Below, in pieces: positions 2,310 to 31,393 of a stretch of DNA of 31,393 nucleotides. A program made the translations under genes and the position numbers. Source of the DNA: Planctomycetota bacterium (GTDB taxonomy: Bacteria; Planctomycetota; Brocadiia; JAADGH01); assembly GCA_013152475.1 (NCBI GenBank), contig JAADGH010000027.1, positions 608 through 32,000 of the forward strand, given 5' to 3'. Every line of letters starts with the position of its first letter. Position 1 is the first letter of the stretch. The notes under the pieces are model-generated. The model made no database searches. It was not told the origin of the DNA and worked only from the letters and a program-made list of their open reading frames with translations.

Positions 2310-2341
2310 GAGTAACCATTTAGCCAAGTGGGTGGCGGGGC

Positions 2342-2823: not shown

Positions 2824-2840
2824 CCTGGGCACGCCCCATC

Positions 2841-4485: not shown

Positions 4486-4577
4486 GGGGAAATTGCGAAA
4501 AGGTTTGACCGGCCGCGCGTGAATATGCGATAATAACGCAGCGTATAGAAAGGCAGATGGCGACAAAGGAGGGCCCG

Positions 4578-5744: not shown

Positions 5745-5799
5745 CGCAGCGTGCGTCGGAGAGGGGGGCCCTCATATGGTTCAGGCAAAGGAGAGCGGC

Positions 5800-6531
5800 A
5801 TGAAGGAAAGGAATCGGGTTCGGGGTTGGCTTGTCATGGGGTTTGTTGTCCTGGTTTGCGGCGCCGTTGCGGCGGAGGATTTCTACTACGAAGCCACCAT
5901 GCAGACGTCGGGCATACAGGGCATGCCGACCATGACCCTGATGCAGAAGGTCTGGATGAGCAAGGGCAAGATGAAGGTGGAGATGACCGGTGGGCCGATG
6001 CCCATGAAGGTCTTTATCCGCACCGACCTTCGGAAGATGTACATGGTCAACGAGATGCAGCACTCCTACATGGAAATGCCCCTCAGCCAGATGATCGGGA
6101 TGGCCGGCAACACGGCCCAGGGGGTGCAGGTCAACGTGCAGAAAACCGAGGAGACCAGGCAGATCGGCAAGTGGAACTGCCGGAAGTACGTCATCACCGC
6201 CACGGGGCCCATGCCCATGAAGGTCACCTCCTGGGTTGCCCCCGGGATCGAAGTGGACAAGAAGATGATGGAGGAGATGCAAAAGGTTATGGGCAGCAAT
6301 CCCGCCATGAAGGCCCTGGCGGAGAAGACCAAAGAGATCAAAGGCTTTCCCATCGAGCAGATCGTCGAGATGAACATGGGGGGCCAGCAGATGACGACGA
6401 AGATGACCGTCACCAAGATCCAGCAGGGCCCCATCCCCGCCAGCACGTTTGATCTGCCCGCCGGCTACCAGAAGATGCAGATGCCCGCCATGCCGCCGGG
6501 AGGCGCGCCCCAGGGCGGCGGGAGGAAATAG
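5800..6531 (+). CDS. DUF4412-like exported protein, methionine-rich
   Basis: AAGGAGAG precedes the ATG at 5800. Signal peptide MKERNRVRGWLVMGFVVLVCGAVAA. IGKWNCRKYVITATG...KVTSWVAPG resembles the DUF4412 core as I recall it. Very high Met content. Confidence 0.65.
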   Translation: MKERNRVRGWLVMGFVVLVCGAVAAEDFYYEATMQTSGIQGMPTMTLMQKVWMSKGKMKVEMTGGPMPMKVFIRTDLRKMYMVNEMQHSYMEMPLSQMIGMAGNTAQGVQVNVQKTEETRQIGKWNCRKYVITATGPMPMKVTSWVAPGIEVDKKMMEEMQKVMGSNPAMKALAEKTKEIKGFPIEQIVEMNMGGQQMTTKMTVTKIQQGPIPASTFDLPAGYQKMQMPAMPPGGAPQGGGRK

Positions 6532-6923
6532 CCCCAGAGCACACGACCGAACGAAGACCATCCGGCGGCCCGGCCACGCGGCGGGATCGACGCCGGCCTT
6601 TCCCCGCGCCTCCCGGATGGTCTCGGCCGTATCCTGCTTCCTCTTTGCCGCATCGCACTTGGATCCGCCGGAGTGCGGATCGAGTATGCCCACCTTGTCG
6701 ATCCTCTTGTCTTGGATGGCGCCGGACTTGGTTTTCCCGAGGTCTTGCCATTTCACTACCCCCAAAAGTTTTCGCAAGACCTTTCACAACGAACCATTAT
6801 CAGACAACAAAATCCGCAAGCTCTGTTCACATATAAACTTACGGAATTCGTTATTCTTATGGCGGAGAGGGGGGGACTCCATAGGATGCTTCCCGGGGTT
6901 GTGCCGCATGATGTCGGAAAGAC

Positions 6924-7427
6924 ATGGAAGTTGCTGAATACAAACAGCTTACAACATATGCCCATGGGCGCCACTCGGCGGCATTGATCATGAGAGGCCG
7001 ATGCCAAGCGACGCAGAGGAGAATAGTGGAACAGGCTGCTGCAAAGGAGCTTGCACTACGCCACGTAGCGCTTCCCGTTCCCGTGTTCCAGAGACTGTCC
7101 GAGAAGTCCGTGCGCCGCTTCCTTGGGCTGATGAAGGACAAGACGGCGTTGCCTATATACCTGCATTGCCTGACAGGCGTTGATAGAGCGAGCGTTTTCG
7201 TTGCTGTCTACAGGATGTCGGACAAGGGGTGGAGTGCAGACAAGGCGTATGAGGAGATGAAGGCGAACGGTTTCAACGTGCTTCTCTTCAACTTGGCCGA
7301 CTACATCTATGAATACGAGACGCGCTGCGGCGGTTCTCTTGGAGCGCAGAAGGCAGACACGACGCCCGCCTGTACGAACTCGCCACGGATGGAGGCCCGT
7401 GGATCACAGATTGATAAGGGTCTTTGA
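6924..7427 (+). CDS. CX5R protein-tyrosine/dual-specificity phosphatase-like protein, possibly N-terminally truncated
   Basis: P-loop IYLHCLTGVDRASVFVAVYRM (HCX5R), followed by KGWSADKAYEEMK, typical of small bacterial DSP-like phosphatases. A stop lies 4 codons upstream of the only ATG, and the usual N-terminal segment seems missing. Confidence 0.55.
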   Translation: MEVAEYKQLTTYAHGRHSAALIMRGRCQATQRRIVEQAAAKELALRHVALPVPVFQRLSEKSVRRFLGLMKDKTALPIYLHCLTGVDRASVFVAVYRMSDKGWSADKAYEEMKANGFNVLLFNLADYIYEYETRCGGSLGAQKADTTPACTNSPRMEARGSQIDKGL

Positions 7428-7442
7428 AAGGGGGCAACAACC

Positions 7443-7840
7443 GTGTATAATGTATTTATTTCCTGCAACAGTGAGGACTACTCGCACGCCAAGGCGGTGT
7501 ACGACCATCTCGTTTGGAATGGCCGCAATGCCTTTTTCTGTGAGGCGACGTTGCGGGAAAAGGGGAAAGCCGATAGATTGATGAAGCCCTTGAGGGCGCG
7601 CAGCACTTGATTGTTGTGCTGTCTTCTGCCGAGAATGTGCGGGCCGGGTGGGTGGAATCGGAATGGGGTGCTTTCGTCAACGAGAAACGCTCAGGCCGGA
7701 AACAGGGGAACGTCGTGAGTGTGCTCTTCGGCGAGGTCTCGATCGAGGAGCTTCCTCTTGCACTGCGCCAGTACGCCGTGGTGAAGTGGGACAAGCAGGG
7801 AAGGGACCATATCTTGAGCCTCCTGTTAGTGGTGGGGTAG
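7443..7840 (+). pseudogene. TIR-domain gene disrupted by a frameshift
   Basis: The GTG at 7443 opens VYNVFISCNSEDYSHAKAVYDHLVWNGRNAFFCEATLREKGKAD (TIR N-terminus). The reading frame must shift by +1 near 7572-7577 to continue IDEALEGAQHLIVVLSSAENVRAGWVESEWGAFVNE...ELPLAL (TIR core with the conserved Glu). Confidence 0.7.
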
Positions 7841-7909
7841 GAGATCTTCCGCACCGACGTCAGAAGCGGCACGATACTCTGGGGCTGCCGACCGAGGAAA
7901 CACAAGGAC

Positions 7910-8128
7910 TTGAAGGACTTGGCGGAGGAGCGTCGGATCGATGACGACAAGAAGGGAAATGTTGTACGAATATGGAAAAGCTCCTTTGATGGGAAGGAGC
8001 GCTGGGAGTGTGAACGGGCGGTAAAGCTGATCCTCGGCAGTCCGGATGCCGCGAAGGCCGCGAGAGTCGGTCTGTCTCGAGTTGTCATGGAGGATAACAA
8101 CGGAGTTGTGTTCTATCCAAAAAGATAA
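7910..8128 (+). CDS. hypothetical ORF, possibly the severed C-terminal part of the upstream TIR pseudogene
   Basis: Same reading frame as the second TIR fragment. Only the single TAG at 7838-7840 separates them, and the frame stays open from 7841 to 8128. The track start at 7910 is a TTG. Confidence 0.3.
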   Translation: MKDLAEERRIDDDKKGNVVRIWKSSFDGKERWECERAVKLILGSPDAAKAARVGLSRVVMEDNNGVVFYPKR

Positions 8129-8167
8129 CTTTGTGACCGAGTACTTGAGAGAAAGACGGAGAACCTG

Positions 8168-10243
8168 GTGATGCCGCAGCCAAGGGATACGTCAGCCGAG
8201 CCGGGATCGCGCGACCGCTTGAGACTGTTCTGGCAGAATCATCTCCGTCCATGGTGGCAGGAGTATCAGTGGCCGGCGGTTGGGATGCTGGGGTTCGTTG
8301 CGCTGGTGCTGGGTTGCATGGGGTTTGATGGGTACTTCCGCGCGCTTGGGCAGGCGAGATCCCCTCTGGATATCTTCTATCTTGCCGTCCAATTGTTTGT
8401 GCTGGAATCTGGTTCTATCCCGGGACCGATGCCGTGGGAGCTTGAGGTAGCGAGGCTGCTCGCCCCTGCTGTTGCGGCCTATGCCGCGGCAAGGGCGTTG
8501 GCGGTCATTTTTCACGACCAGATCCAGGCGGTTCGGCTCCGCTTCATCAGAGGACACGTGGTCGTCTGTGGTCTGGGGCGGAAGGGATTTCAGCTTGTCC
8601 GGGACTTCCGCGAGCAGGGCGAACGCGTCGTCGTCATTGAACTCAACGAGGGGAACGACGAGATTGGGAGTTGTCTGGATCTCGGCGCCCTTGTGCTAAC
8701 CGGCAACGCACCGCATGGATCCCTCTTGCGGAAGGCACGAGTTCATACTGCAACACGCCTCGTTGCCGTCTGCGGTGATGATGGGACGAACGTGGAGATT
8801 GCGGTTCAGGCGTATAGACTTGTGCAAGACAAACGCGTCTTGGTCGGGGACATCTGGGGGTGCCTTCTTGATTTCGTAGATCGTGAGCCCTGCAGGCGAT
8901 CTGTACAGTGCCACTCTGGTGCACACAGGACCGAGGTGCATCAGTTCCGGGCTGCATGGCGCAGGTTCCTTGCGCAAACAGGTCGCTGGTGCTATCAGAT
9001 CGCGGACCTGGGGGTATGCACATTCTTCGCCCAGGGCAGAGCAGCACGCGGCGTTCTTACCGAACACCTGAGAAGCACACTGTCGCCTTCCGTCGGAAGT
9101 GTGGAGTGCTATGTGCACATTGTCGATCTCGGGTTGTGCAGGCTGTTTGGACAACACAGAGCGTTCACCGAGAGAGAAGATCCCTTCGAGGCGAGGCTTT
9201 TCAACATATACGAAAGCAACGCCCGTCTGCTTCTCGAGAAGCATCCCTTGGGCCGCGGCCTGGTCGGGGCGGAGGACCCGCGCACCGTCCATCTTGTGTT
9301 GGTGGGTTTCGGCCAGATGGGGGAGAGCGTCGCCTTGCAGGCCGCGAGAGTCGGCCACTACGCCAACGGCAAGAAGCTGCGCCTCACCATCATCGACCGG
9401 GAAGCGGAGAAGAGGAGAGGGATCTTCTACGGGCGGTACCCGCAGTTTGGCCAAATCTGCGACGCCACGTTCATGTCCGCGGATGGAGAGGATTCCGACG
9501 TGCTGAACAGTATAGGCCAATGGGCCAGCGACCCAGAAATGGTCACGACCACTGTGATCTGCTTGGACGATGATTCGCGCGGCCTGTCGTGCGCCCTGGC
9601 ATTGCTCCAGAAGCGGAAGAAGGGTGGCATCGCTCCTCTACTCGTCCGCATGTCCGGCAACGCGGGCCTGGGCGCTCTACTTCGGGATGAGGTATGTAGC
9701 CCTGAGCTAGTGGGTAATATTGACACTTTCAGTCTCGCCTGCACGTTGGGGATGCTGTTGAACGAAAGCATCGACATCCGCGCCAGAGCGATTCACCGGC
9801 AGTACGTCGAGCAACGTCGGCGTGAGGGCCATAATGCTGAGAGTGATCCCGCAATGGCAGATTGGTATTGCCTTGATGAGTCCTACAAGAATTCGAACCG
9901 CCAACAGGCCGATCATATACCTGTCAAGCTCCGAGCGATTGGGTGCTACAGTTTGCGTACCAAGGAACACCTTGCTGCCGTGATAGAATTTACGGACGAG
10001 GAAGTCGAACTACTGGCCAGGATGGAGCACTCGCGATTTGTGGCTGAGCGCCTGCTTGGGGGTTGGACCTACGGGCCGGAAAGGAACCTTGCGGAGAAAA
10101 GAAGCCCCTACCTGATCCCCTGGGATGATCCGCGATTGCCTGAAAGCGTGAAGGATTATGATCGCCAGTTTGTGCGAGATATCCCGAGATTGCTTGCCAT
10201 GGCAGGGGAAAGGGTCTATCGAAAGCCTGCCACCCATTTGTAG
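8168..10243 (+). CDS. membrane protein with two TrkA-N/Rossmann-type domains and a C-terminal RyR-type domain
   Basis: N-terminal hydrophobic helices (WPAVGMLGFVALVLGCMGF; IFYLAVQLFVLE; LLAPAVAAYAAARALAVIF). HVVVCGLGRKGFQLVRDFREQGERVVVIE is a GxGxxG Rossmann motif. A second one is VHLVLVGFGQMGESVALQAAR. C-terminus MEHSRFVAERLLGGWTYGPERNLAEKRSPYLIPWDDPRLPESVKDYDRQFVRDIP is RyR-like. The likely ATG is at 8171. Confidence 0.75.
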   Translation: MMPQPRDTSAEPGSRDRLRLFWQNHLRPWWQEYQWPAVGMLGFVALVLGCMGFDGYFRALGQARSPLDIFYLAVQLFVLESGSIPGPMPWELEVARLLAPAVAAYAAARALAVIFHDQIQAVRLRFIRGHVVVCGLGRKGFQLVRDFREQGERVVVIELNEGNDEIGSCLDLGALVLTGNAPHGSLLRKARVHTATRLVAVCGDDGTNVEIAVQAYRLVQDKRVLVGDIWGCLLDFVDREPCRRSVQCHSGAHRTEVHQFRAAWRRFLAQTGRWCYQIADLGVCTFFAQGRAARGVLTEHLRSTLSPSVGSVECYVHIVDLGLCRLFGQHRAFTEREDPFEARLFNIYESNARLLLEKHPLGRGLVGAEDPRTVHLVLVGFGQMGESVALQAARVGHYANGKKLRLTIIDREAEKRRGIFYGRYPQFGQICDATFMSADGEDSDVLNSIGQWASDPEMVTTTVICLDDDSRGLSCALALLQKRKKGGIAPLLVRMSGNAGLGALLRDEVCSPELVGNIDTFSLACTLGMLLNESIDIRARAIHRQYVEQRRREGHNAESDPAMADWYCLDESYKNSNRQQADHIPVKLRAIGCYSLRTKEHLAAVIEFTDEEVELLARMEHSRFVAERLLGGWTYGPERNLAEKRSPYLIPWDDPRLPESVKDYDRQFVRDIPRLLAMAGERVYRKPATHL

Positions 10244-10446
10244 AGATGGTTGGGGCGTTACAACAGGACAACAGGAGGAGGACGTTTGAAAGGTTTCTCA
10301 GCTTTTGAGACAGATATCTTCGGGAATTAGATGTAGTAGATAGTACTTAATCTGACAGTTTCGCTGAACTGTTCCATAGCAATGCCTGATGGACAAGAGA
10401 ATGCCGGCAACGTGGGATCTGATGAGGACGAGGAACTGGTGTCCAC

Positions 10447-10847
10447 CTATTCCTTGAGCGATCCGCATGCGGCCTCAAGCTCCCGCAATTTCTCGCTCAA
10501 TTTCTTCATTTCCGGAGCGTCCATGCCAATCGCATGAAGTTCCTGCCTCGCGCTCCTTGCCAAGTCCACAAACTTCCGTATCTCTTTCGGGTTGGTCGAT
10601 GACCAGGCTTTTCGAATTCTTTCGTTCGCGATGCGGCAAATCTCAGCCCTGGCGTAGTATCGACGCTTGAAGGCCCCTTGTCATAGACATCAGGGCCACA
10701 AAAGGAGTATTTGGCTTCGTAATCGCACGCTTGGGCATACCAATATGACTCAGTGCCGCCAACTCGCGCCTTCAGTCGACCGATCAAGCTAACGATGTCT
10801 GCCTGTATCATACCGATGTCTGGTCCTTCGGCTCTTGCTTTCGACAT
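10447..10847 (-). pseudogene. small hypothetical gene interrupted by a frameshift
   Basis: GGAGG lies 6 nt before the ATG (complement of 10845-10847). It reads MSKARAEGPDIGMIQADIVSLIGRLKARVGGTESYWYAQACDYEAKYSFCGPDVYDKG. A protein-like reading then continues only in another frame: FKRRYYARAEICRIANERIRKAWSSTNPKEIRKFVDLARSARQELHAIGMDAPEMKKLSEKLRELEAACGSLKE, with the stop at 10447-10449. Confidence 0.45.
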
Positions 10848-11349
10848 GGCATGCCTCCATCCGTTCAGGGGGAAATGGTTCCGCATACACTGTGACTACC
10901 GAGCGAATGTCGTGCCGAGTGCCCGGACCGTCAGAAAAGCCGAGACAAACCCTTGTGAGGCAGGCGAGTACGACAACGGTTTCGGGGAAAGAAAATTGAG
11001 TTCCGGCGTTGAGTTATCGATTGTTGGGGAACTGGAGAGTGGCGATGCCCAATTGCGATAAGCGTGCAAGTGGAAGATGGCAGCAAGCTTGGGGCAAGAA
11101 ACTGAATTTTGAGATGAAACGGCACGGGATATGATGCTTCGTTGCTTGCTGGCGGGGGCCGTCAGAGTAGGCATGGTACACAAGAAAAGGATTGCGCTAC
11201 CAAGCCGCAGCCTGTAACTTGGGTATGTCAGGCCAGCCAATTACAGAAACCCGTTGGTGGCGGCGTTCAGCATTGCGCGAGGCCGTAACCGTGGCGATGC
11301 GCATGGATCCTGCAAGGGTATCGAAAGCCCATGGAGAAGGAGGAAAATC

Positions 11350-11796
11350 ATGTCGGCAAAACCATTCGGACTGGCCATGAAGGCGTTCATCTACGATGAG
11401 GAAGGACGCTGTCTTCTTATCAGACGATCCATGAACTCAAAATTCTTCGCCGGCCAGTGGGATTTGCCGGGAGGCAAGGTGGATTCCGGCGAAGAATTCG
11501 ACGATGCCATGGCTCGGGAGGTGGCCGAAGAGACGGGCTTGACCATTACACTGGAAGGGGTTGCCGGAGCGAGTGAGCACGAACTGCCGCACATTCGTGT
11601 CGCGATCCTGTTCATGGAAGCGCGTGTTGCGTCGGGAGATGTCCAGTTGAGCAGTGAGCACGACGAATTCAGATGGGTATCACGGAAGGAACTCGGCAAC
11701 ATGGACATCTCCGATCAATTGAGTCCCTTTGTTTTGAGCTATCTTGAATCGAGCAATAAGTCGCAGATCATCTCGGACGAAAGGGGCCATGGATAA
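11350..11796 (+). CDS. NUDIX hydrolase
   Basis: Complete Nudix box GKVDSGEEFDDAMAREVAEETGL (GX5EX7REUXEEXGU). AAGGAGGA lies about 5 nt before the ATG at 11350. The track ORF from 11254 is an upstream extension. Confidence 0.9.
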   Translation: MSAKPFGLAMKAFIYDEEGRCLLIRRSMNSKFFAGQWDLPGGKVDSGEEFDDAMAREVAEETGLTITLEGVAGASEHELPHIRVAILFMEARVASGDVQLSSEHDEFRWVSRKELGNMDISDQLSPFVLSYLESSNKSQIISDERGHG

Positions 11797-11840
11797 TAGC
11801 TCTGAACAATAATTTGCCGGTTTTACAAAGGAGACATCCG

Positions 11841-14537
11841 ATGTCTAAGAAAGGCAAAGCGACTGAGACGAAGCACGAACGCGAACAGATCGTGAAGTAT
11901 GGAAGACTGTATCCTCGGTATAAGAAGTTCGCAGAGGTCCTCCGCCATATTCTCGAGAAAGCCGCGAAGACGCGAGCCCCCCTTGCCATCGTTCAGACAC
12001 GCCCGAAAAACATCGCAAGTTTTGCTGAGAAGATTCAGCGCAAAAAGGAAGAATACAAAGACCCGGTCAATGAGTTTACCGATCTCTGCGGAGGTCGTGT
12101 AATCGTGCACTTCCGGCGGGAAATTGATGCGATATGTGACTTCATCAAAAACCACTTCAAGGTCGATTGGGACAACAGCGTGGATGTTGTCGAACGACTC
12201 AACCCCACGGAGTTCGGCTATCGATCCGTCCACTATATCGTGTCGTTCCGGAAAGGTGTTTTTCCGACGGAAGAGATCCATGTCAAGATACCGGAAACAG
12301 TGCTGGGTCTGAAGTGCGAAATCCAGGTCAGGACCATCCTCGAACACGCGTGGGCCGACATCTCTCACGATCTGAGCTACAAGAGCGCTTTTCCCGTTCC
12401 CGAGAGGTGGATACGGGATATTGCACGTCTGGCCGCCATGCTCGAAGAAATTGACAGCGACTTCGAACGGGTTCAAGAGAGACTTCACAGTTACGCGGCC
12501 AGTTACGGCGAATACATGATGCCGGAGAAAGTCCAGGACGAAATCGACAAGCTTCGGATTGTGCTGAAGTATGACAGGAACAACGCAGAACTGGCGGACC
12601 GTATCGGCAAACTTGCCATCACGATCGGCGAATGGGATATTGCGATTCAAGTCCTTTCTCCGTATGCCGACTCCGGTCACCCGGCGGTGCTGAGGGATCT
12701 GGGGGTCGCGCTGTGCAAAAAGTATGACGGAAACAGGAAGAACGCCAAATATCGGCAAGGTCAATGCTACTTGGAGTTGGCTGCCGAACCTGAGCATCAG
12801 GATGCCGATGCGATGGCTTCCCTTGCTGGAACGTGGAAGGAAACTGATGAGGAAAAGGCACGGGAACTCTATCGGCGGGCCTACGAGGTCGATCCATCGG
12901 ATGCCTATCCCTTGGGCAACTATCTGGACCTGGAAATCATTCGCCAGAAAAACACATCCATTGTCTCGTTGATGAATCCGATGATTGAGGTGGCGGTTCA
13001 GAGATGCAGAGACCAAGCTAATGTGGGTATGAATCTGCCCTGGGTGTTCTATAGCATCGGCAAGTTCCGCCTCCTTCAGGGGAAGCCATACGAAAGCCTG
13101 GCTGCTTATGCCAAGGCAATCGACGTCAGCAGTGCGACGTTCATGATCGAATCCTCGTTGGAATCCCAGGATCGGCTTGCTGTGGTTGAGGAGCATCTAA
13201 CAGGCCTCCAGTGGGTGAGGATGTTGCTCCGCGTGGGATTGGCTGCCCACCTGATAAAGCGCCAACGAGAGGCCTTGGAGCAACGTCGTGCGGCGCGCGA
13301 GGACCTGAAGGAAAGCAAAGCAAAGCTTCGAGAGTTGGAGAAAGGGAGAAGGAAGTCACGCAAGGAGATCGCCGAACAGAAACAAGAGGTCAAGGATGCG
13401 GAGACCGGTGTCAAAGAGGCGCAGCGAGCGGTGACCCAAGCGAGGAAGGAACTTAGGGCGGCGAGATCGAAGTACATTCTGAAGAGCCAGCTCGCGTTCC
13501 GGAAAACACAACCCATCAACCAGCCTATAGTGATCGTGGTTGGCGGATGCGATCCTCAACTTAAGAAAGAAATGGCAGGATACAGATATCTCCTACTGGA
13601 GGCATTCAGGGACTTTGAGGGTACGGTCATATCCGGGGGCACAACGGCTGGAATCTCGGGCATCGTCGGCGAGATCGGCAAGAGATATCGGGGCCGCATC
13701 CACACGATAGGCTATCTTCCTCAGGCTCCGCTACCTGCCGATGCTAAGCTGGACAAGCGCTACGGTGAGGTCCGTCGGACGAAAGGCGAGGGGTTCACCC
13801 CCCTGGAACCCCTCCAGAACTGGATGGACATACTCGCCTCGGACATCGATCCGGTTGAGGTCCGCGTTCTCGGCGTCAATGGCGGCAAAATTGCGGCCGC
13901 GGAGTATCGCATCGCCCTGGCACTGGGCGCCCAGGTGGCCGTGGTGGAGGAGAGTGGCCGCGAGGCCGCCCGGTTGGCTCCCGACGAGGACTGGAGCGAC
14001 CTGCCGAACCTGATCCATCTTCCTGCCGACCCGATGACCATTCGTGCGTTCATTGGGTCGGGAAGCGGCAAACTGCCGGAGAAGATTCGGGATACCGTCG
14101 CCAAGGGCGTTCATGAGGAATACCGCCGCAATCAGGAAAAGGAGCTGCACAGCGGGAAGCCTTCGATGGCAGAATGGGCCAGCCTGAAGGAAAATCTCAA
14201 GGAGTCCAATCGCCAGCAGGCCGACGACATCTCAGCAAAGCTTCGCCGGATCGGCTGCACGGTAGAGCGCGTGAAGAATCGCGAGATTGTGCTCATGACG
14301 TTCACGAAGGCTGAAGTGGAAGCGATGGCGGTTATGGAGCACGCCCGATGGAATGTAGAGCGCCTCCTCGACGGCTGGACGTGGGGGCCGCAAAAGGACG
14401 TCGACCAGAAGATCAGCCCCTATCTGGTGAGCTGGGAAAAACTTCCCGAAAACGTCAGAGAATGGGACCGCCAGGCCGTTCGCGCCATCCCCAAACTCCT
14501 CGCCGAAGTAGGGCTGGAGGTGCGGCGGAACAGATAG
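11841..14537 (+). CDS. multidomain RelA/SpoT-type nucleotide pyrophosphokinase - TPR - coiled coil - SLOG (LOG/TRPM-N-like) - RyR-type domain protein
   Basis: - Synthetase motifs: TRPKNIASFAEKIQRKK, DLCGGRVIV, GYRSVHYIV, CEIQVRTILEHAWADISHDLSYK.
- TPR-like helices at about aa 250-400.
- Charged coiled coil: KRQREALEQRRAAREDLKESKAKLRELEKGRRKSRKEIAEQKQEVKDAE.
- SLOG-like: IVIVVGGCD...VISGGTTAGISGIVGE...GVNGGKIAAAEYRIALALGAQVAVVEESGR.
- RyR-like: MEHARWNVERLLDGWTWGPQKDVDQKISPYLVSWEKLPENVREWDRQAVRAIP.
- AAAGGAGA lies 6-7 nt before the ATG at 11841. Confidence 0.85.
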   Translation: MSKKGKATETKHEREQIVKYGRLYPRYKKFAEVLRHILEKAAKTRAPLAIVQTRPKNIASFAEKIQRKKEEYKDPVNEFTDLCGGRVIVHFRREIDAICDFIKNHFKVDWDNSVDVVERLNPTEFGYRSVHYIVSFRKGVFPTEEIHVKIPETVLGLKCEIQVRTILEHAWADISHDLSYKSAFPVPERWIRDIARLAAMLEEIDSDFERVQERLHSYAASYGEYMMPEKVQDEIDKLRIVLKYDRNNAELADRIGKLAITIGEWDIAIQVLSPYADSGHPAVLRDLGVALCKKYDGNRKNAKYRQGQCYLELAAEPEHQDADAMASLAGTWKETDEEKARELYRRAYEVDPSDAYPLGNYLDLEIIRQKNTSIVSLMNPMIEVAVQRCRDQANVGMNLPWVFYSIGKFRLLQGKPYESLAAYAKAIDVSSATFMIESSLESQDRLAVVEEHLTGLQWVRMLLRVGLAAHLIKRQREALEQRRAAREDLKESKAKLRELEKGRRKSRKEIAEQKQEVKDAETGVKEAQRAVTQARKELRAARSKYILKSQLAFRKTQPINQPIVIVVGGCDPQLKKEMAGYRYLLLEAFRDFEGTVISGGTTAGISGIVGEIGKRYRGRIHTIGYLPQAPLPADAKLDKRYGEVRRTKGEGFTPLEPLQNWMDILASDIDPVEVRVLGVNGGKIAAAEYRIALALGAQVAVVEESGREAARLAPDEDWSDLPNLIHLPADPMTIRAFIGSGSGKLPEKIRDTVAKGVHEEYRRNQEKELHSGKPSMAEWASLKENLKESNRQQADDISAKLRRIGCTVERVKNREIVLMTFTKAEVEAMAVMEHARWNVERLLDGWTWGPQKDVDQKISPYLVSWEKLPENVREWDRQAVRAIPKLLAEVGLEVRRNR

Positions 14538-14582
14538 GCTGTTGTCACCCAACGGCCGGATGAATGCCGAAAGGAGAACCAG

Positions 14583-14810
14583 ATGGCCGACGTTTTCATC
14601 AGTCACATTGAAGAGGACGCTGAAGTAGCTGAGACCATCGCGCATAGCTTGGAGGGGGCCGGGTACACGACATGGTATTACGAGCGTGACACCAGTAGCG
14701 CGCGAGCCGATTTCGCAGAGGTGCGAGGTGATCGTCGCTGGGTAACACATGCAGCAGCGCGAGAAGCAGTGCTTGATGAGCTCACAAGAAAACGGCACAA
14801 TAGCGCTTGA
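14583..14810 (+). pseudogene. decayed TIR-domain gene (N-terminal strand/helix intact, remainder scrambled)
   Basis: A good RBS (AAAGGAGAACCAG) is followed by MADVFISHIEEDAEVAETIAHSLEGAGYTTWYYERD, a typical TIR start. After about aa 35 the TIR pattern is lost. TIR-like pieces (EVIVAG; ENGTIALDP) appear in other frames up to about 14870. Confidence 0.55.
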
Positions 14811-14930
14811 TCCGCGTCTTCGTTTCGTCCGCGTTCCGCAATATGCAGGAGGAACGTGGGTCAACTGAGATGTCTGCGAAGTTGGATCAGCTCTGACGTC
14901 CAGTTCTGGGCAAAGACCCGTCTCTTGGGC

Positions 14931-16637
14931 TCACACCCCCTTCATCAACCAGTCCCGCTCGTGAAATACGGCGTCGAGGGCGCTGTCGAGATGGTCGTCA
15001 ATGATACTGCGCCAGTAGGTAACGGCATCGACGGGAACGGAGAACAGTAGGTCGTCGAAGTGGGAGAGTTTCTCGATCAGTCCTTCGAATATGCCGAAGG
15101 TGGACTTGCCGTGGAAGAGCAGCGGCTGCTGGCAGAGTCTTTCAAGTTCGAGCATGTGGTGGCGCATAGTCCTGTGGACATTCTTGAGCGCCTTGGGTTC
15201 TGTCTTGCTTTTGAGCACGCGCTGGAAGGCATTCCGAAAGGCCAAGATCAGGTCCTGCGCCTCAAGAAGGTGGCGCAGGCATTCGACGGCGTGCCGGCTT
15301 AGCTCATCGGCAGGCAGCTCGTCAGGCTCGATCGCTGCGGCCTGGCCCAGAAGGCGAAAGACCCCGCGCAAGTGTTTCGCGTTGAGACTATGTCTTGGGA
15401 CGATGTTGTGAAACACCGCATAGAGATGGGCAAGCACCGACTTCAATTCGCGTGCATTGCCGGGCCAGCGATAGGTTTGCAGTTCTGAGATGATGTCGGG
15501 GGGTAATGTCCAATTGCTGTTCCCTGTGATCTTTGCCCAGAATGCCTTGGCCAGCAAGGCCACATTTTCGGGGTTATCCTGGAGTCTCGGCGTGGAGATG
15601 ACGAACCATCGGAGGCGGTAGTACAAGTCTTCTCGAAACTGGCCGCTGTGAACCATGGACGGCAGATCGCGGTTGGTTGCGGCGATCACTCGAGCATTCA
15701 CAGGGGTCTCTTTCTGCTCACCAATTCTCCGGACCTTATGGTCCTGTATGGCACGCAATATCTTTGTTTGATGATCGAGCCTGAGTTCGCCAATCTCATC
15801 AAGGAACAGAATTCCATTCTGTGCGGACTGCCACAAGCCTACCTTATCCCTCGTCGCGCCGGTGAAGGCTCCCTTTATATAGCCGAATAGCTCCGATTCC
15901 AGCAGTTCGCTTGGAATGGCACCGCAGTTGACCGGTACGAAGGGCCCCCTTCTGAGCGGACCGAACGTGTGAATGCATTTTGCGACGAGCTCTTTGCCAG
16001 TGCCTGTATCGCCAAGGATGAGCACCGGGTTGTCGTCTTCTTTGGCGAGGACAATGAGTTTCCTAGCAAGTTCCACTTTTTTGCATGTGCCCACAAATCG
16101 TTCTGCAAGCGCCTTTGGGACCTCGACCTTGGCCAACAGAGAGATGGGCGACTCGTCTTTGCTCCCTGCCGGGTCATCCTGAAGGGCCTCCTTCCAGAGT
16201 TCCCGGAATTGATCTTCTGGAACAGCAATGAGGCAGGCCCGGAGCCGGTCGTTCCCTTCGGCCTTGGGATTAAGGAGGGCTTTGTCGGCTCTTTTAAGGA
16301 GGGCCTTTACGCCTCCCTTCAAATGCCCTGTTGTTCCGTATTTTGCGCGAATCAATCGAATTCCGTCTTGCCCCTTCAAAAGCCGGTAGAGCTCAATCTC
16401 TTCGTTTTGCACGCCTTTGTCGACAACAAGGTCATCGAGTTTTGTCAGTTGCTCAATGTCGATAGATGAGATGACGTAGGCCGTTGGCCGTTCCGGTGAG
16501 CACGCTTGCTTGAATGCTGTCTTAGTGTTCCATTCCGCTCTGCGGCATGCAAGATCTTTCTTTTTCGGTTCCTCGTCGGTTTTCGGCTCCCTGTTTGGAT
16601 CAAGAAAGAGCTCGACCGCACTTATGTTCATCTTCAT
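14931..16637 (-). CDS. sigma-54-dependent AAA+ transcriptional activator (bEBP) with unknown N- and C-terminal domains
   Basis: Walker A LILGDTGTGKELVAK. Sigma-54 contact loop YIKGAFTGA (GAFTGA). Walker B ILFLDEIGEL, then RVIAATNRDL, EDLYYRL, RWPGNARELKSV. GGAGGA RBS. No Fis-type HTH is recognisable in the ~150-aa C-terminus. Confidence 0.85.
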   Translation of the reverse strand: MKMNISAVELFLDPNREPKTDEEPKKKDLACRRAEWNTKTAFKQACSPERPTAYVISSIDIEQLTKLDDLVVDKGVQNEEIELYRLLKGQDGIRLIRAKYGTTGHLKGGVKALLKRADKALLNPKAEGNDRLRACLIAVPEDQFRELWKEALQDDPAGSKDESPISLLAKVEVPKALAERFVGTCKKVELARKLIVLAKEDDNPVLILGDTGTGKELVAKCIHTFGPLRRGPFVPVNCGAIPSELLESELFGYIKGAFTGATRDKVGLWQSAQNGILFLDEIGELRLDHQTKILRAIQDHKVRRIGEQKETPVNARVIAATNRDLPSMVHSGQFREDLYYRLRWFVISTPRLQDNPENVALLAKAFWAKITGNSNWTLPPDIISELQTYRWPGNARELKSVLAHLYAVFHNIVPRHSLNAKHLRGVFRLLGQAAAIEPDELPADELSRHAVECLRHLLEAQDLILAFRNAFQRVLKSKTEPKALKNVHRTMRHHMLELERLCQQPLLFHGKSTFGIFEGLIEKLSHFDDLLFSVPVDAVTYWRSIIDDHLDSALDAVFHERDWLMKGV

Positions 16638-16919: not shown

Positions 16920-16936
16920 TTGGCATAACTTGTGCA
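16920..16936 (+). promoter_or_regulatory. candidate sigma-54 (-24/-12) promoter
   Basis: TTGGCATAACTTGTGCA has GG (16922-16923) and GC (16934-16935) separated by exactly 10 nt, as in the TGGCAC-N5-TTGC consensus. There is one mismatch in each element. It lies about 70 nt upstream of the first operon gene (17007) and is divergent from the bEBP gene. Confidence 0.55.
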
Positions 16937-28303: not shown

Positions 28304-28332
28304 AAAAAACTCGTATTCTCAGAAACGTGGGG

Positions 28333-28338
28333 TATAAT
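28333..28338 (+). promoter_or_regulatory. candidate sigma-70 -10 box
   Basis: Perfect TATAAT in the 137-bp gap between the ClpA-like gene and the first TIR-TM gene. The -35 is poor (CTCGTA at 17 nt spacing). Confidence 0.3.
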
Positions 28339-28440
28339 AGGGTCGCCTGGTCGTGGGGAAGCCGTTGTTCCCACCATTCTTCACGGGGGCAACCGAAACC
28401 TGCGAGTGACACAATGAAAGCGTGAACGAGGGAGGGCCAC

Positions 28441-29286
28441 GTGAAGCAGGGGGCACGAAGAAGAACCGGCGGCCGGCAACAGGTCTTCATCAGCTACCGG
28501 CGCGAGGGCGGCGCTGAGTTAGCCCGCTTGGTGCGAAATAGCTTGGTGCAGCGAGGCTATCGAGTGTTCATGGATGTGGAAGACCTGCGCACCGGTCCCT
28601 TCAATAAGGCCCTTGCGGAGTGCATCAGGTTTTGTACGGACGTGGTGATCATTCTGACTCCAGGCAGTCTTGATCGTTGCTTCAACCAAGGGGATTGGGT
28701 CAGACTCGAGATTGCCTATGCCCTCCAGCAGAAGAAGAACATCATTCCTGTGATGGCTCGGGGTTTCGAGTGGCCGCCGAAGCCGCTTCCGAAGGATATT
28801 GGCGGTCTGCCGCTCTTCAACGCCCTCACACCCGCCCACGAAATCTTTGACGCCAGTATGGACAAGCTTGCGTCCCTGCTCCATGCGCGCCCACGCAAGA
28901 TGGCCCCAAAGCTGCTTCTCTGTGGAGCTGCAATCGCTGCCGTGGTCGCGGTCACGCTTTTCATGGTTTTACCGTCATCTGACCGAGCGAAACAGAGCCC
29001 AGTTGAGCAGACACTCAAGGATAAGAAGCCTACGAAAGACAAAGAGGCGGGGACTCCGCGTGATGCGGCCAAGGACTTGGGCCGGAAACGCCAGCAACCA
29101 CCTCTACCTCCTCTGTCTCGAATGGGCGGTCGCGAAAGACCTTTCTGCGAAACCCTATCCGGAGAAGAAGCCCTTGTGGACGTTCCAGAAACGGTAGAAG
29201 GGGATAGCGTATGTGCCGCGTGGCGTATCCATTGCGGAGGTGAAACCAATCGGAGGGATGGACGTGTTGTTCTTCACGGCCGATGA
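28441..29286 (+). CDS. TIR-domain protein with one transmembrane helix
   Basis: QVFISYRREGGAELARLVRNSLVQRGYRVFMDVEDL...DVVIILTPGSL...WVRLEIAYAL...NIIPV is a TIR with the conserved Glu. TM helix LLLCGAAIAAVVAVTLFMVL. GTG start. The 3' end overlaps the next ORF. Confidence 0.8.
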   Translation: MKQGARRRTGGRQQVFISYRREGGAELARLVRNSLVQRGYRVFMDVEDLRTGPFNKALAECIRFCTDVVIILTPGSLDRCFNQGDWVRLEIAYALQQKKNIIPVMARGFEWPPKPLPKDIGGLPLFNALTPAHEIFDASMDKLASLLHARPRKMAPKLLLCGAAIAAVVAVTLFMVLPSSDRAKQSPVEQTLKDKKPTKDKEAGTPRDAAKDLGRKRQQPPLPPLSRMGGRERPFCETLSGEEALVDVPETVEGDSVCAAWRIHCGGETNRRDGRVVLHGR

Positions 29287-29788
29287 ACACTATGGGCACG
29301 CCCACATCATCCACCTCTGCGGGCGGCCTTTTCGGACGGTGGAGGAAATGGACGAGGAGCTGATACGGCGCCACAATGCCGTCGTGAAGGACAGCGACCT
29401 CGTCGTCCATGTGGGGGACTTCACCCTCAAGAACAAGAGCCGGGCCAAATCGTACATCTCCCGCCTCAAGGGGGAACACGTCTTTCTCCGTGGAAGCCAC
29501 GACAGATGGCTGAAGGAGGCGCATGAGATTTGGGAAAAGGAGATCGCGGGAGAATACGTCGTCGTTTGCCACTACGCCATGAGAGTATGGCCGAGATCGC
29601 ACTACAACAGCTGGCAGCTCTACGGCCATTCCCACGGCAGACTCGATCCCATCGGCAAGCAGTGGGACATCGGTGTGGACAACAACGACTATTATCCCGT
29701 ATCCTTTGAGCGGATAAAAGATATCATGGCGGAGCGGCCGGACAATCCCAATCTGATCAAGGGCGGCAAACCGCGGACCCGCCGTTGA
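29213..29788 (+). CDS. calcineurin-like metallophosphoesterase
   Basis: FFTADEHYGH (motif I), VVHVGDF (GD), FLRGSHD (GNHD-like), LYGHSHG (GHxH). The start is ambiguous: GTG 29213, GTG 29240 or ATG 29258. Confidence 0.75.
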   Translation: MPRGVSIAEVKPIGGMDVLFFTADEHYGHAHIIHLCGRPFRTVEEMDEELIRRHNAVVKDSDLVVHVGDFTLKNKSRAKSYISRLKGEHVFLRGSHDRWLKEAHEIWEKEIAGEYVVVCHYAMRVWPRSHYNSWQLYGHSHGRLDPIGKQWDIGVDNNDYYPVSFERIKDIMAERPDNPNLIKGGKPRTRR

Positions 29789-29794
29789 AAGGGC

Positions 29795-30823
29795 ATGTCC
29801 TGGCGTCCGCCCGGGAGGGAAAAGGAAATCTTGAATCCACCGCAGCAAGACGCCGTTCATCCTCCCTTTGAGGCGTATTCGGGAGACGAGCCATATCTCT
29901 TTGTGAGCTATGCCCACAAGGATGCGGCGGCGGTCTACCCGGAATTGAAATGGATGCATGGGCACGGCTACCGCGTCTGGTACGACGAAGGCATTGATCC
30001 TGGGAATGAATGGCCGGAAGAGATTGCCAAAGCGCTCCACGGCTGTTCGATGTTCCTCGTCTTCATCTCCCCGCGTGCCGTCGTATCCAAGAACGTCCGC
30101 AATGAAATCAACTACGCCATCAACCACGACAAGCCCTTCCTGGCTGTGTATCTTGAAGAGACCGAACTGCCCCGGGGCCTGGAGCTCCGTATGGGTGACA
30201 TTCAGGCCATCGTGAAGTACCGTATGCCGGAAGACCGATACCATCGGCAACTACAGAGATCGCTTCCGCACGACCTGGGCGGTGGTATTCCAGAGGGTGG
30301 GGCGGTCGAGTCGCAGCCAGAGCCAGCCGCCGAAGTTGCCGCGGACACGGGCAGTCCGAAACCGTCGATCAATAGGGAAACACGCATACGACGAGAGATC
30401 TGGAAGTTCATGCTTTTTGCCCTCAGCTACGGTGTGGGGATCGCGGCGATTCAGTGCTTGGGGGTCCTTGCGAAATTCGATGGCGTTCTGTATGGGGTGG
30501 ACATTTCGGCGAAGGCGCGGTTCACGTTCAGCCTCGATGGCATACTCGCTATTGTGGTCCTGTCCGTCCTGCCCGGTGTGTGGTTTCTTCTGTGGGAGAA
30601 CAACGAGAAGGGGATTGCGTCCTCCATCGTATGCCTGCTTGCCTATTACGGATTCGCAGCGCTCCACTGGAAGTACGTCGGCCGCATGCTTCCACTGGTT
30701 GCGCCGGGCATTGCGGTCTGCGTTGCTGTATTCTGTGCTCTGGGAAATCAACTGGCGTACTGGCGCACCTGGCATTCGCCCCGGGACCCGGATGCGAAGG
30801 ACCCGTTGAAGCCGCCGTGCTAA
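29795..30823 (+). CDS. TIR-domain protein with four C-terminal transmembrane segments
   Basis: PYLFVSYAHKDAAAVYPELKWMHGHGYRVWYDEGIDPGNEW...MFLVFISPRAVVSKNVRNEINYAI...KPFLAVYL is a TIR. Hydrophobic segments: FMLFALSYGVGIAAIQCLGVL, ILAIVVLSVLPGVWFLLW, IASSIVCLLAYYGFAAL, LPLVAPGIAVCVAVFCAL. Confidence 0.8.
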   Translation: MSWRPPGREKEILNPPQQDAVHPPFEAYSGDEPYLFVSYAHKDAAAVYPELKWMHGHGYRVWYDEGIDPGNEWPEEIAKALHGCSMFLVFISPRAVVSKNVRNEINYAINHDKPFLAVYLEETELPRGLELRMGDIQAIVKYRMPEDRYHRQLQRSLPHDLGGGIPEGGAVESQPEPAAEVAADTGSPKPSINRETRIRREIWKFMLFALSYGVGIAAIQCLGVLAKFDGVLYGVDISAKARFTFSLDGILAIVVLSVLPGVWFLLWENNEKGIASSIVCLLAYYGFAALHWKYVGRMLPLVAPGIAVCVAVFCALGNQLAYWRTWHSPRDPDAKDPLKPPC

Positions 30824-30854
30824 TGGGACTCTTGATACTGCAAGGTAGGGAATT

Positions 30855-31393
30855 GTGAACGAACAGAACCAACAATCCGATGCGCTTCCGGTTGCCCGCC
30901 TCCTTCGCTATGGCCGGCAGGTGGTCATGCGGGCCATGGAGCGGACGCGCTTCGAAATGCGGGGAGGTCGCCGCTTGGCCATGAAGGAGGTGGTCGAGGG
31001 CAGCTTGGAGCACAAGAGCGTAGAGAACCCCACGAAGCAGATCGACAAAGAGATCGAGAACGACATCATCGCGAGCCTGCGCAAGAAACTGGGTACGATC
31101 GCAGGACTGCCTCCCTACGCCATCTTCTCGGAGGAGTGCGGCATCTTGGCCTGTGGGAGCGAGGCGGGCTCGGAGCAGGATGCGCGTTTCGTCATCTTCG
31201 TCGATCCCGTGGACGGCACGGAGTTTGCCGAGGCGCTGCAGGGCGGCTGGTGTCTCCTGGGTTTCTATGATGCGCAGGAGAGGAAAGCGCTCGGCGCGAT
31301 TGCCGGCGATATCTTTCTGGATCGGCTCTTCTGGACCCCCGACGAGTTCGGCAGGGCCAGCGCGCTCGACTTCATCACCCATTCCGAGTTCCA
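30855..31393 (+). CDS. inositol-monophosphatase/CysQ-family phosphatase-like protein (3' end outside window)
   Basis: Not in the ORF track because it never reaches a stop. My own translation from the GTG at 30855 gives VNEQNQQSDALP...KQIDKEIENDIIASLRKKL...IFSEECG...FVIFVDPVDGTEFA, which carries the family DPxDGT motif and the upstream D..E / EE metal motifs. The 277-aa minus-strand track ORF is its antisense shadow. Confidence 0.7.
   Translation, partial: MNEQNQQSDALPVARLLRYGRQVVMRAMERTRFEMRGGRRLAMKEVVEGSLEHKSVENPTKQIDKEIENDIIASLRKKLGTIAGLPPYAIFSEECGILACGSEAGSEQDARFVIFVDPVDGTEFAEALQGGWCLLGFYDAQERKALGAIAGDIFLDRLFWTPDEFGRASALDFITHSEF

What the first reader, a model, noticed from the sequence alone, without database searches (positions are those of the whole stretch)
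28441..31393. TIR-TM / metallophosphoesterase / TIR-4TM / IMPase-like cassette directly downstream of the conjugation operon
Two intact TIR proteins each retain the conserved catalytic-position Glu (WVRLEIAYAL; VRNEINYAI). Each is fused to membrane-spanning segments, one helix in the first and four in the second. They bracket a calcineurin-like phosphoesterase and are followed by an IMPase/CysQ-family phosphatase. TIR NADase or signal-synthase domains, membrane effectors and two phosphohydrolases that could trim or erase nucleotide signals together resemble Thoeris/CBASS-like logic. The arrangement matches no described type that I know. Its position 137 bp after the conjugation operon, with a possible own TATAAT, raises the question of whether it is that system's effector arm.
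Basis: partly seen in the sequence, partly recalled or inferred. Interest (0 to 1): 0.62.

Follow-up and report, generated by a model that had tools for sequence, protein, structure and literature searches.

The report
Membrane TIR pair with two phosphatases
Four tightly packed genes in an uncultured planctomycete encode two membrane-anchored TIR enzymes (one closely resembling human SARM1) and two phosphatases; the set is unique as a unit, but its parts tie it to a widespread, unstudied TIR / RyR-SLOG / alarmone-synthetase network rather than to the protein-tagging operon next door.

Summary
There are four co-directional genes, spaced -29, 6 and 31 nt apart:
- a SARM1-like TIR with one TM helix (PDB E 7e-28, catalytic Glu aligned);
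- a 176-aa metallophosphoesterase (MPE) with all metal ligands kept;
- a TIR with a 4TM tail (Glu invariant in 121 relatives);
- a divergent IMPase-fold phosphatase, complete just beyond the window.

The "effector arm of the conjugation operon" reading is mostly not supported. Five homologous Ubl+Pup operons with readable downstream DNA lack the cassette. It also has a housekeeping-type extended -10 site, whereas the operon has a sigma-54-like site.

New evidence:
- The 4TM module has only six relatives among 1.84 billion representatives. Four are 4TM fused to a SARM1-like TIR, so the two window TIR proteins probably form one membrane complex.
- The IMPase-like family is conserved across phyla. 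It sits beside TIR proteins, mostly TIR-STAND (16/35 loci, adjacent in 11), and beside RyR/SLOG/RelA-SpoT/NUDIX proteins (20/35). Those proteins also lie upstream in this island.
- Two of the six nearest MPE homologues lie between TIR-STAND genes.

It fits no described Thoeris, CBASS or Pycsar type. Most likely it is a membrane TIR NAD(P)ase module with two nucleotide-processing phosphohydrolases. The biochemistry is inferred.

The parts
28325..28339 (+). Promoter-like site ACGTGGGGTATAAT (extended -10 type, weak -35) in the 137-nt gap after the ClpA/B-like AAA gene
   Evidence: Sequence read. Genome-wide, GTGGGGNATANT sites often carry TTGACA at the -35 position, so this looks like the organism's housekeeping promoter form. 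The same ACGTGGGG-CATATT element with a perfect TTGACA precedes the next operon (vWA). No terminator-like hairpin lies in the gap. Function not tested.
28441..29286 (+). TIR-1TM: N-terminal SARM1-like TIR domain (aa ~10-150), one TM helix (aa 153-181), ~100-aa charged tail
   Evidence: Pfam TIR_2 7.7e-15. phmmer against PDB gives SARM1 TIR at E 7e-28, with the catalytic Glu aligned. Hydropathy. It is 45% identical to the TIR half of the 4TM-TIR fusion P0364. A GAGGGAGG Shine-Dalgarno-like stretch lies before the GTG start.
29258..29788 (+). Small calcineurin-like metallophosphoesterase (GSHD variant of motif III), overlapping the TIR-1TM stop by 29 nt
   Evidence: invariant D7, H9, G51-D52, G77-S-H-D80, H103, G121-H-x-H124. 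AF2 pLDDT 91.8; the closest solved structure is Aquifex aq_1665, 1XM7. phrog_547 at 1.2e-37.
29795..30823 (+). TIR-4TM: TIR_2-type TIR (aa ~30-160), linker, rare 4TM module (aa ~200-325)
   Evidence: E104 invariant. The 4TM module has only 6 relatives in 1.84e9 representatives, 4 of them fused to a SARM1-like TIR.
30855..31393 (+). Divergent IMPase-fold phosphatase. The window cuts it; the full gene is 335 aa and ends at contig C241:32469 (window-equivalent 31862).
   Evidence: The genome has a separate canonical IMPase on C111.
7568..7810 (+). TIR remnant with an internal TAG, next to the TrkA_N-RyR gene. Associated feature, not part of the cassette.
   Evidence: PF13676 search of the whole genome: only four matches, all on this contig.
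14592..14696 (+). Second TIR remnant, directly after the RelA/SpoT-TPR-S-SLOG-RyR gene. Associated feature.
8168..14537 (+). TrkA_N-RyR, NUDIX and RelA/SpoT-TPR-S-SLOG-RyR genes: the module that in other genomes lies directly beside IMPase-like and TIR genes. Inferred partner of the cassette.
   Evidence: Pfam; neighbourhood tallies.

Best explanation
The cassette is a membrane-based TIR module with two accessory nucleotide phosphohydrolases. It belongs to a widespread but uncharacterised network of TIR, RyR/SLOG-sensor, RelA/SpoT-like synthetase and NUDIX genes. It is not a dedicated arm of the Ubl+Pup tagging operon.

Proposed working:
1. TIR-1TM (SARM1-like) and TIR-4TM are made together and associate through their membrane parts. 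(Inferred from domain fusion elsewhere.)
2. An envelope or infection cue makes the cytoplasmic TIR domains assemble and cleave NAD(P)+ into nicotinamide plus ADPR or cyclic-ADPR-type products. (Inferred from homology; the catalytic Glu is shown.)
3. The products deplete NAD+, and/or are read by the SLOG and RyR domains of the RelA/SpoT-like synthetase and the TrkA_N-RyR protein encoded 14-20 kb upstream. (Inferred from recurrent neighbourhoods.)
4. The IMPase-like enzyme removes a ribose 2'/3'-phosphate, for example from NADP-derived 2'-phospho-ADPR or from pNp left after NUDIX cleavage of an alarmone. The MPE removes a phosphodiester or cyclic phosphate. Together they process or erase the signal. 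(This is the weakest step. It rests on superfamily chemistry only.)
For: Shown:
- Tight operon geometry with spacings of -29, +6 and +31 nt.
- TIR-1TM matches the SARM1 TIR at E 7e-28 with the catalytic Glu aligned.
- TIR-4TM Glu104 is invariant in 121 relatives.
- Both phosphatases keep all metal ligands, and their folds are confirmed.

Rosetta stone. The 4TM tail has only six relatives. Four are 4TM plus TIR. In the one tested against PDB (P0364), the TIR matches SARM1 at E 4e-29. P0364 maps half to TIR-1TM (E 1e-33) and half to the TIR-4TM tail (E 1e-19).

IMPase-like family, 35 loci from many phyla:
- TIR ORFs occur in 16 loci and lie directly adjacent to the IMPase-like gene in 11. Most are TIR-NB-ARC/NACHT-TPR/WD40 proteins.
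- Controls: 2/86 MPE loci (Fisher p 1e-8) and 1/20 Ubl+Pup loci (p 0.002).
- Proteins homologous to the window's RyR / RelA-SpoT / NUDIX proteins occur in 20/35 loci.
- The family's weak best sequence hits in PDB are 3'(2'),5'-bisphosphate nucleotidases.

MPE contexts:
- The closest MPE homologues P0244 and P0251 (72-74% identical) lie between two TIR genes.
- Another, P0250, lies two genes from an IMPase + ADP-ribosylglycohydrolase fusion.
- An MPE + IMPase-like fusion, P0163, sits beside RelA/SpoT-SLOG-RyR, NUDIX and TIR genes.

Own genome:
- It has only four TIR_2 matches, all in this island. Two are decayed copies beside the RyR/RelA-SpoT genes.
- The cassette is absent from 60 relatives, including the same genus.
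Against: - The four-gene unit itself was found nowhere else, so co-function of all four genes rests on spacing and pairwise links.
- The MPE family at large associates with RNA-repair and phage genes (RlaP, RNA ligase, RtcB, HAD_SAK; phrog_547), not with TIR. Its TIR link is seen in only 2 of the 6 nearest relatives.
- The MPE domain of fusion P0163 and the IMPase domain of the L187 fusion are different families from those in the window.
- The RyR/RelA-SpoT module is 14 kb away, with a whole operon in between.
- No substrate, NADase activity, trigger or phage phenotype is known.
- TM topology comes from hydropathy only.
- The genomic contexts of the 4TM-TIR fusions could not be retrieved.
Confidence: 0.5

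Rival explanations
1. The cassette is the effector or output arm of the adjacent Ubl (E1/E2/JAB) plus Pup (Mpa/Dop/PafA) operon. It would be co-transcribed with it and regulated by conjugation, as CBASS enzymes are primed by Cap2/Cap3.
For: - Only 137 nt separate the two, with no terminator-like hairpin.
- In G061:C127 the same operon is followed in one row by NUDIX, RelA/SpoT-SLOG-RyR, NUDIX and IMPase-like.
- In L172 a tandem-TIR gene lies between the bEBP and the operon.
- Full-length relatives of the window's sigma-54 activator flank both Ubl+Pup operons (L172) and IMPase/TIR loci (L009, L017, L024, L025).
- From my own knowledge: coupling of nucleotide systems to prokaryotic ubiquitin-like systems is a known theme (Burroughs et al. 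2015; CBASS Cap2/Cap3).
Against: - No TIR, MPE or IMPase lies downstream of five homologous operons (L154-L158). Their neighbours there are TPR, DUF6088, ThuA, nitroreductase, HEAT and beta-helix proteins.
- The operon has a sigma-54-like -24/-12 site (16921-16936). The cassette has none, and instead has a housekeeping-type extended -10.
- The IMPase-like family occurs in 34 other loci, only one of which has the operon.
Confidence: 0.17
2. The four genes are a chance stack of independent accessory genes in a defence/conflict island. On this view the two TIRs are stand-alone NAD+-depleting abortive-infection proteins, the MPE is a phage-type RNA-end-healing phosphoesterase, and the IMPase-like gene belongs to the RyR/RelA-SpoT system.
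For: - The unit is unique.
- MPE neighbours elsewhere are mainly RNA-repair and mobile-element genes, and the family is common in phages.
- The island is absent from relatives and is full of other conflict-type genes.
Against: - Overlapping or near-abutting reading frames.
- TIR-IMPase adjacency recurs in 11/35 loci.
- The TIR-MPE-TIR order recurs in the nearest MPE relatives.
- The 4TM / SARM1-like-TIR fusion links the two TIR genes.
Confidence: 0.23
3. The TIR domains are non-enzymatic scaffolds in a membrane signal-transduction or housekeeping pathway, and the phosphatases are ordinary metabolic enzymes.
For: - The TIR of TIR-4TM belongs to a very large family fused to many non-immune-looking domains such as FGE-sulfatase, kinases and GYF.
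- No defence-system model matches the cassette.
Against: - The catalytic Glu is invariant in that family.
- The other TIR is SARM1-like, and SARM1 is an established NADase.
- The genome has a separate canonical IMPase.
- Distribution is patchy and island-like.
- Partners elsewhere are STAND NTPases.
Confidence: 0.1

Closest known systems
SARM1 TIR domain (animal NAD+ hydrolase) and bacterial SARM1-like TIRs
   Same: TIR-1TM aligns over ~140 residues at E 7e-28, including the DW-x-x-x-E catalytic helix. The expected chemistry is NAD(P)+ cleavage or cyclisation upon oligomerisation.
   Different: There are no ARM or SAM domains. Instead there is a single TM helix and a charged tail, and the gene is encoded with a second TIR carrying a 4TM module. 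Activation logic is unknown.
Thoeris (ThsB TIR + ThsA; types I-III)
   Same: A TIR protein acts as the presumed signal maker. In type II the effector is membrane-spanning. There are weak partial hits to ThsB / ThcB4 models.
   Different: There is no ThsA (SIR2-SLOG or Macro-TM) and no ThcA. Scores are far below the family cut-offs (44.6 against 220 bits). The TM segments are on the TIR proteins themselves, and two phosphohydrolases are present.
TIR-STAND (NLR-like) bacterial immune proteins and TIR-SAVED CBASS / type III CRISPR effectors
   Same: They use the same TIR_2-type domain. TIR-STAND genes are the usual neighbours of the IMPase-like family and of the nearest MPE relatives. TIR-SAVED (7QQK) is the only solved match to TIR-4TM.
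   Different: The window proteins have no STAND NTPase or SAVED sensor; membrane modules take their place.
Predicted nucleotide-centric conflict systems with SLOG / LSDAT, RyR, RelA/SpoT and NUDIX domains (comparative-genomics predictions of the Aravind group; Pfam LSDAT_prok, TPR-S)
   Same: The domain vocabulary and the neighbourhood logic are the same. The island contains RelA_SpoT + TPR-S + LSDAT_prok + RyR, NUDIX and TrkA_N-RyR.
   Different: My searches of the held literature found no mention of an IMPase-like partner or of a 4TM-TIR module. The 2015 NAR paper itself was not held, so prior description cannot be excluded.
IMPase superfamily nucleotide phosphatases (CysQ / BPNT1 3'(2'),5'-bisphosphate nucleotidase; archaeal NADP phosphatase; SuhB)
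   Same: The fold and the metal-binding motifs match. The weak best sequence hits are BPNT1-type enzymes.
   Different: Identity is only 14-19%. There is a family-specific N-terminal helix of ~40 residues. The family is not a housekeeping orthologue, because the genome has a separate canonical IMPase.

Membership tests
Catalytic TIR (NADase/cyclase) domains | TIR fold with the conserved catalytic Glu in the alpha-C region | tested here: met
   TIR_2 hits for both proteins. The TIR-1TM Glu aligns with the SARM1 catalytic Glu. TIR-4TM E104 is invariant in 121 relatives.
Catalytic TIR (NADase/cyclase) domains | Demonstrated NAD(P)+ cleavage or cADPR-isomer production | not testable with these tools
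   Needs an enzyme assay and LC-MS.
Thoeris | ThsB TIR together with a ThsA effector (SIR2-SLOG or Macro-TM), or the type III ThcA/ThcB set | tested here: not met
   PADLOC and NCBIfam give only partial TIR-region hits (ThcB4 44.6 bits against a cut-off of 220). Neither library gives a ThsA or ThcA hit to any cassette gene or to the six upstream genes scanned, and Pfam finds no SIR2 or Macro domain in the ORFs scanned across the island.
CBASS / Pycsar | CD-NTase or pyrimidine cyclase signal generator | tested here: not met
   The ORFs scanned by Pfam across the window and the contig extension, and the ten scanned by PADLOC, show no such domain.
Calcineurin-like metallophosphoesterase superfamily | Motifs D-x-H, G-D, G-N-H-[DE], H, G-H-x-H, and the alpha/beta sandwich fold | tested here: met
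   All motifs are invariant in 25 relatives, with Ser replacing Asn in motif III. The AF2 model matches 1XM7 at TM 0.72. The Pfam score itself is just below the gathering threshold (21.0 against 21.5).
IMPase / FBPase / CysQ superfamily | Metal-binding Glu, the D-P-x-D-G-T motif, the C-terminal [WY]-D motif, and the five-layer fold | tested here: met
   Invariant E93/E94, D117, D120-G-T and Y258-D259. Inositol_P 3.6e-16. Foldseek probability 1.0 to IMPA2 and SuhB.
CysQ / BPNT1 orthologues (3'-phosphoadenosine 5'-phosphatase) | Orthology-level similarity to CysQ / BPNT1 | tested here: not met
   The profile against PDB gives only E 1.7e-4. NCBIfam hits are far below cut-offs. It is a separate, divergent family.
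Effector arm of the Ubl+Pup operon | Conserved presence next to homologous operons | tested here: not met
   Absent downstream of L154-L158. Only G061 has the IMPase-like gene (with the RelA/SpoT module), and L172 has a tandem TIR upstream.

The most novel reading that the evidence does not exclude
The divergent IMPase-like family is the dedicated processing or erasing enzyme of an undescribed immune or stress signalling pathway. In that pathway TIR enzymes (STAND-coupled in most genomes, membrane-coupled here through a 4TM module shared with SARM1-like TIRs) make an NAD(P)-derived nucleotide. SLOG/RyR domains read it and gate a RelA/SpoT-like alarmone synthetase. The window would then show a membrane-sensing version of that pathway, and a bacterial antecedent of membrane-associated SARM1-type signalling.
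Probability: 0.3. Interest if true: 0.75.

Novelty: new variant of a known kind. Interest (0 to 1): 0.55.

Why it matters
TIR enzymes are central to immunity in bacteria, plants and animals, and SARM1 drives axon degeneration. Three things follow from this locus:
- A bacterial SARM1-like TIR tied to a rare, TIR-specific 4TM module points to a way of coupling TIR activation to the membrane.
- A conserved IMPase-fold phosphatase beside TIR-STAND and RyR/SLOG/RelA-SpoT genes in many phyla points to an unknown phosphorylated nucleotide intermediate, or to a host-encoded signal eraser.
- RyR and TRPM-type SLOG domains are the nucleotide-sensing modules of animal Ca2+ channels. Finding what they bind in bacteria could clarify their ancestral ligands.

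All of this is directly testable with recombinant proteins.

Tried and rejected
- **Cassette in relatives.** Neither the IMPase-like gene nor the PafA-like gene was found in 60 relatives, including the same genus.
- **Cassette next to homologous Ubl+Pup operons.** Rejected.
- **MPE family as a general TIR partner.** Rejected. Of 86 MPE loci only 2 have TIR. The Pfam tally of flanks shows RNA-repair and mobile-element genes instead.
- **MPE as a general partner of the IMPase-like family.** Rejected. The MPE domain of fusion P0163 is a different family, and the IMPase domain of the L187 IMPase-ARH fusion is also a different family.
- **Sigma-54 promoter before the cassette.** None found. Only a chance-level GG-N10-GC is present.
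- **4TM module in other genomes.** Not found in 400 Planctomycetota or 400 Verrucomicrobiota genomes, nor in viral contigs. Contexts of the 4TM-TIR fusions could not be fetched because they came from a tool whose proteins look-up of encoding contigs does not accept.
- **Literature.** No paper held links TIR with an IMPase-like partner. The Burroughs 2015 NAR paper is not held.
- **Earlier scan notes.** Searches by sequence and by words gave nothing for the IMPase-like protein.


Full report
**Anatomy.** The window is G000:C241:608-32000 of a 6.5-Mb, 61% GC planctomycete MAG, and the contig runs on for about 8.8 kb more. Four + strand ORFs fill 28441-31862:
- TIR-1TM, 281 aa.
- A 176-aa metallophosphoesterase (MPE) that overlaps the TIR-1TM stop by 29 nt.
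- TIR-4TM, 342 aa, 6 nt further on.
- After 31 nt, an IMPase-like gene. The window cuts it, but it is complete on the contig at 335 aa.

Upstream, a 137-nt gap follows a ClpA/B-D1-like AAA gene that ends the E2?/E1/Ubl/JAB + Mpa/Dop/Pup/PafA operon. Downstream, about 340 nt containing a consensus TTGACA-N17-CATATT promoter precede a vWA gene and two Tubulin_2 genes. The cassette is therefore a bounded four-gene unit.

**The two TIRs.**
- TIR-1TM is strikingly SARM1-like. phmmer against PDB gives E 7e-28 over about 140 residues, and DWVRLEI pairs with SARM1 DWVHKEI, the catalytic-Glu helix.
- The TIR of TIR-4TM belongs to a huge family that is 60-74% identical and carries very varied C-termini (FGE-sulfatase, kinase, TPR, WD40, RyR). 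Its Glu104 is invariant in 121 members.
- Hydropathy gives one TM helix in the first protein. In the second it gives three strong segments plus one moderate one.
- These are the only intact TIR genes in the genome. The only other TIR_2 matches are two decayed fragments at window 7568-7810 and 14592-14696, beside the RyR/RelA-SpoT genes of the same island.

**A domain-fusion link between the two TIR proteins.** I scored the 4TM tail alone against 1.84 billion cluster representatives and found only six relatives.
- Four of them are proteins with the 4TM module at the N-terminus and a TIR at the C-terminus. One is a stand-alone 4TM protein. The sixth match is weak, at E 2.9e-6, to an FG-GAP repeat protein.
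- The TIR of P0364 is SARM1-like (E 4e-29). Its sequence block resembles those of P0363 and P0366.
- P0364 maps onto this contig in two halves. Its TIR matches TIR-1TM (45% identity, E 1e-33), and its 4TM region matches the tail of TIR-4TM (38% identity, E 1e-19).

What is one protein elsewhere is split over the two TIR genes here. That is good comparative evidence that the two act as one membrane complex.

**The IMPase-like gene.** It is not a housekeeping IMPase, because the genome has a canonical one on C111. It belongs to a distinct family of about 316 aa, 50-70% identical across Planctomycetota, Verrucomicrobiota, Acidobacteriota, Aminicenantes and others. All IMPase metal ligands are invariant, and the IMPase fold is confident. 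The best sequence hits in PDB, though weak, are 3'(2'),5'-bisphosphate nucleotidases.

I examined 35 loci carrying this family.
- Proteins homologous to the window's RelA/SpoT-SLOG-RyR, TrkA_N-RyR or NUDIX proteins occur in 20.
- TIR ORFs occur in 16 and are directly adjacent to the IMPase-like gene in 11. Most are TIR-NB-ARC/NACHT-TPR/WD40 proteins.
- A giant HD_4 (SpoT-type) protein occurs in 6.
- A full-length relative of the window's sigma-54 activator occurs in 4.
- TIR frequency in control loci is 2/86 (Fisher p 1e-8) and 1/20 (p 0.002).

This family is therefore a dedicated partner of TIR and RyR/SLOG/alarmone-type proteins. The window's TIR-4TM then IMPase-like order is the common arrangement, with an unusual TIR partner.

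**The MPE.** It belongs to a very conserved small family of more than 1380 members. Motif III reads GSHD, and the family matches phrog_547. Across the family, neighbours are RNA-repair and mobile-element genes such as RlaP, RNA ligase, RtcB and HAD_SAK. Among the six nearest homologues (68-74% identical):
- two lie between two TIR genes;
- one lies two genes from an IMPase + ADP-ribosylglycohydrolase fusion;
- three have unrelated neighbours.

A different MPE domain is fused to an A1-type IMPase in P0163, beside RelA/SpoT-SLOG-RyR, NUDIX and TIR genes. The MPE link to TIR and IMPase is real but local to a subclade or analogous, not general.

**Relation to the conjugation operon.** Kaur et al. 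2020 (PMC7159879) already mention a Ubl system coupled to a Pup system in Planctomycetes and Thermofonsia. Earlier notes of this scan say the same.
- PafA-like genes occur in 22 of 401 Planctomycetota genomes.
- In five homologous operons with readable downstream DNA, nothing resembling the cassette follows.
- In the verrucomicrobial G061:C127 the operon runs on into NUDIX, RelA/SpoT-SLOG-RyR, NUDIX and IMPase-like.
- In L172 a tandem-TIR gene lies between the bEBP and the operon.
- The operon has a sigma-54-like TGGCATaacttGTGCA site about 70 nt before its first gene.
- The cassette has ACGTGGGGTATAAT, which matches the extended -10 seen at TTGACA-bearing promoters elsewhere in this genome. 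No terminator lies in between.

The cassette is not the operon's conserved arm. Occasional physical and possibly regulatory coupling of the two kinds of system remains possible.

**Mechanism.** The most likely reading is a membrane TIR NAD(P)ase complex whose products deplete NAD+ and/or signal to SLOG/RyR-bearing proteins of the island. The IMPase-like enzyme (ribose 2'/3'-phosphate monoesterase chemistry) and the MPE (phosphodiester or cyclic phosphate) would trim or erase nucleotides.
- Shown: the domains, the catalytic residues, the gene geometry, the neighbourhood statistics and the fusion evidence.
- Inferred: all of the biochemistry, the trigger and the topology.

**Verdict.** The cassette fits no described system and is best filed as a new variant of TIR-based nucleotide systems. 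Two items seem undescribed in the literature I could search: the IMPase-like partner family and the 4TM / SARM1-like-TIR module.

Noticed in passing
L002 4765-12760 (contig C241:32764-40759, just beyond the window) and L130 (C200): A vWA protein (1077 aa) and two Tubulin_2 proteins (922 aa and >732 aa) form the next operon, which has a consensus TTGACA-N17-CATATT promoter. The contig end overlaps C200, which carries a further RyR-domain protein about 3 kb on. This resembles the vWA/tubulin conflict systems of Kaur et al. 2020.
   Followed up: partly
window 14931-16637 (-), and loci L009, L017, L024, L025, L172: The island's sigma-54 activator matches, over nearly its full length (including the unassigned N-terminal ~180 aa), activators that sit beside IMPase-like/TIR loci and beside another Ubl+Pup operon. 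Paralogues in the same genome match only the AAA+ core. This may be a shared regulator subfamily for both kinds of system.
   Followed up: partly
window 7568-7810 and 14592-14696: Two decayed TIR fragments (one with an internal TAG) flank the TrkA_N-RyR / NUDIX / RelA-SpoT-SLOG-RyR genes. Together with the cassette TIRs they are the only TIR_2 matches in the 6.5-Mb genome.
   Followed up: partly
L187 2465-4336 (Kiritimatiellae MAG JAFGHX010000252.1): A 623-aa fusion of a canonical IMPase domain with an ADP-ribosylglycohydrolase domain lies two genes upstream of a 72%-identical homologue of the window's MPE. An ankyrin-repeat protein, AbiEii and an FtsH-like gene are nearby.
   Followed up: partly
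L172 1955-2905 (G189:C53): A soluble tandem TIR-TIR protein is encoded between the sigma-54 activator and the first gene of a homologous Ubl+Pup operon.
   Followed up: no
L129 (G061:C127, Verrucomicrobia VER2 MAG) 645-15568: A single + strand row reads E2-like, E1, JAB, Mpa, Dop, PafA, NUDIX, RelA/SpoT-SLOG-RyR, NUDIX, IMPase-like. This is the same combination of modules as in the window, but contiguous and without the TIR/MPE genes.
   Followed up: partly
loci L012, L013, L031, L034, L037 (cluster c7) and L010: Giant proteins of 1330-1517 aa, with a SpoT-type HD_4 domain (plus RelA_SpoT in L010) and a ROK/actin-like ATPase-looking region, recur 4-6 kb from or next to the IMPase-like gene.
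   Followed up: no
window 6924-7427: A DSP-type phosphatase of the PTP-NADK / Swiss-Army-Knife kind lies at the left edge of the RyR module. It is another nucleotide or ADPR-type phosphatase candidate in the island.
   Followed up: no
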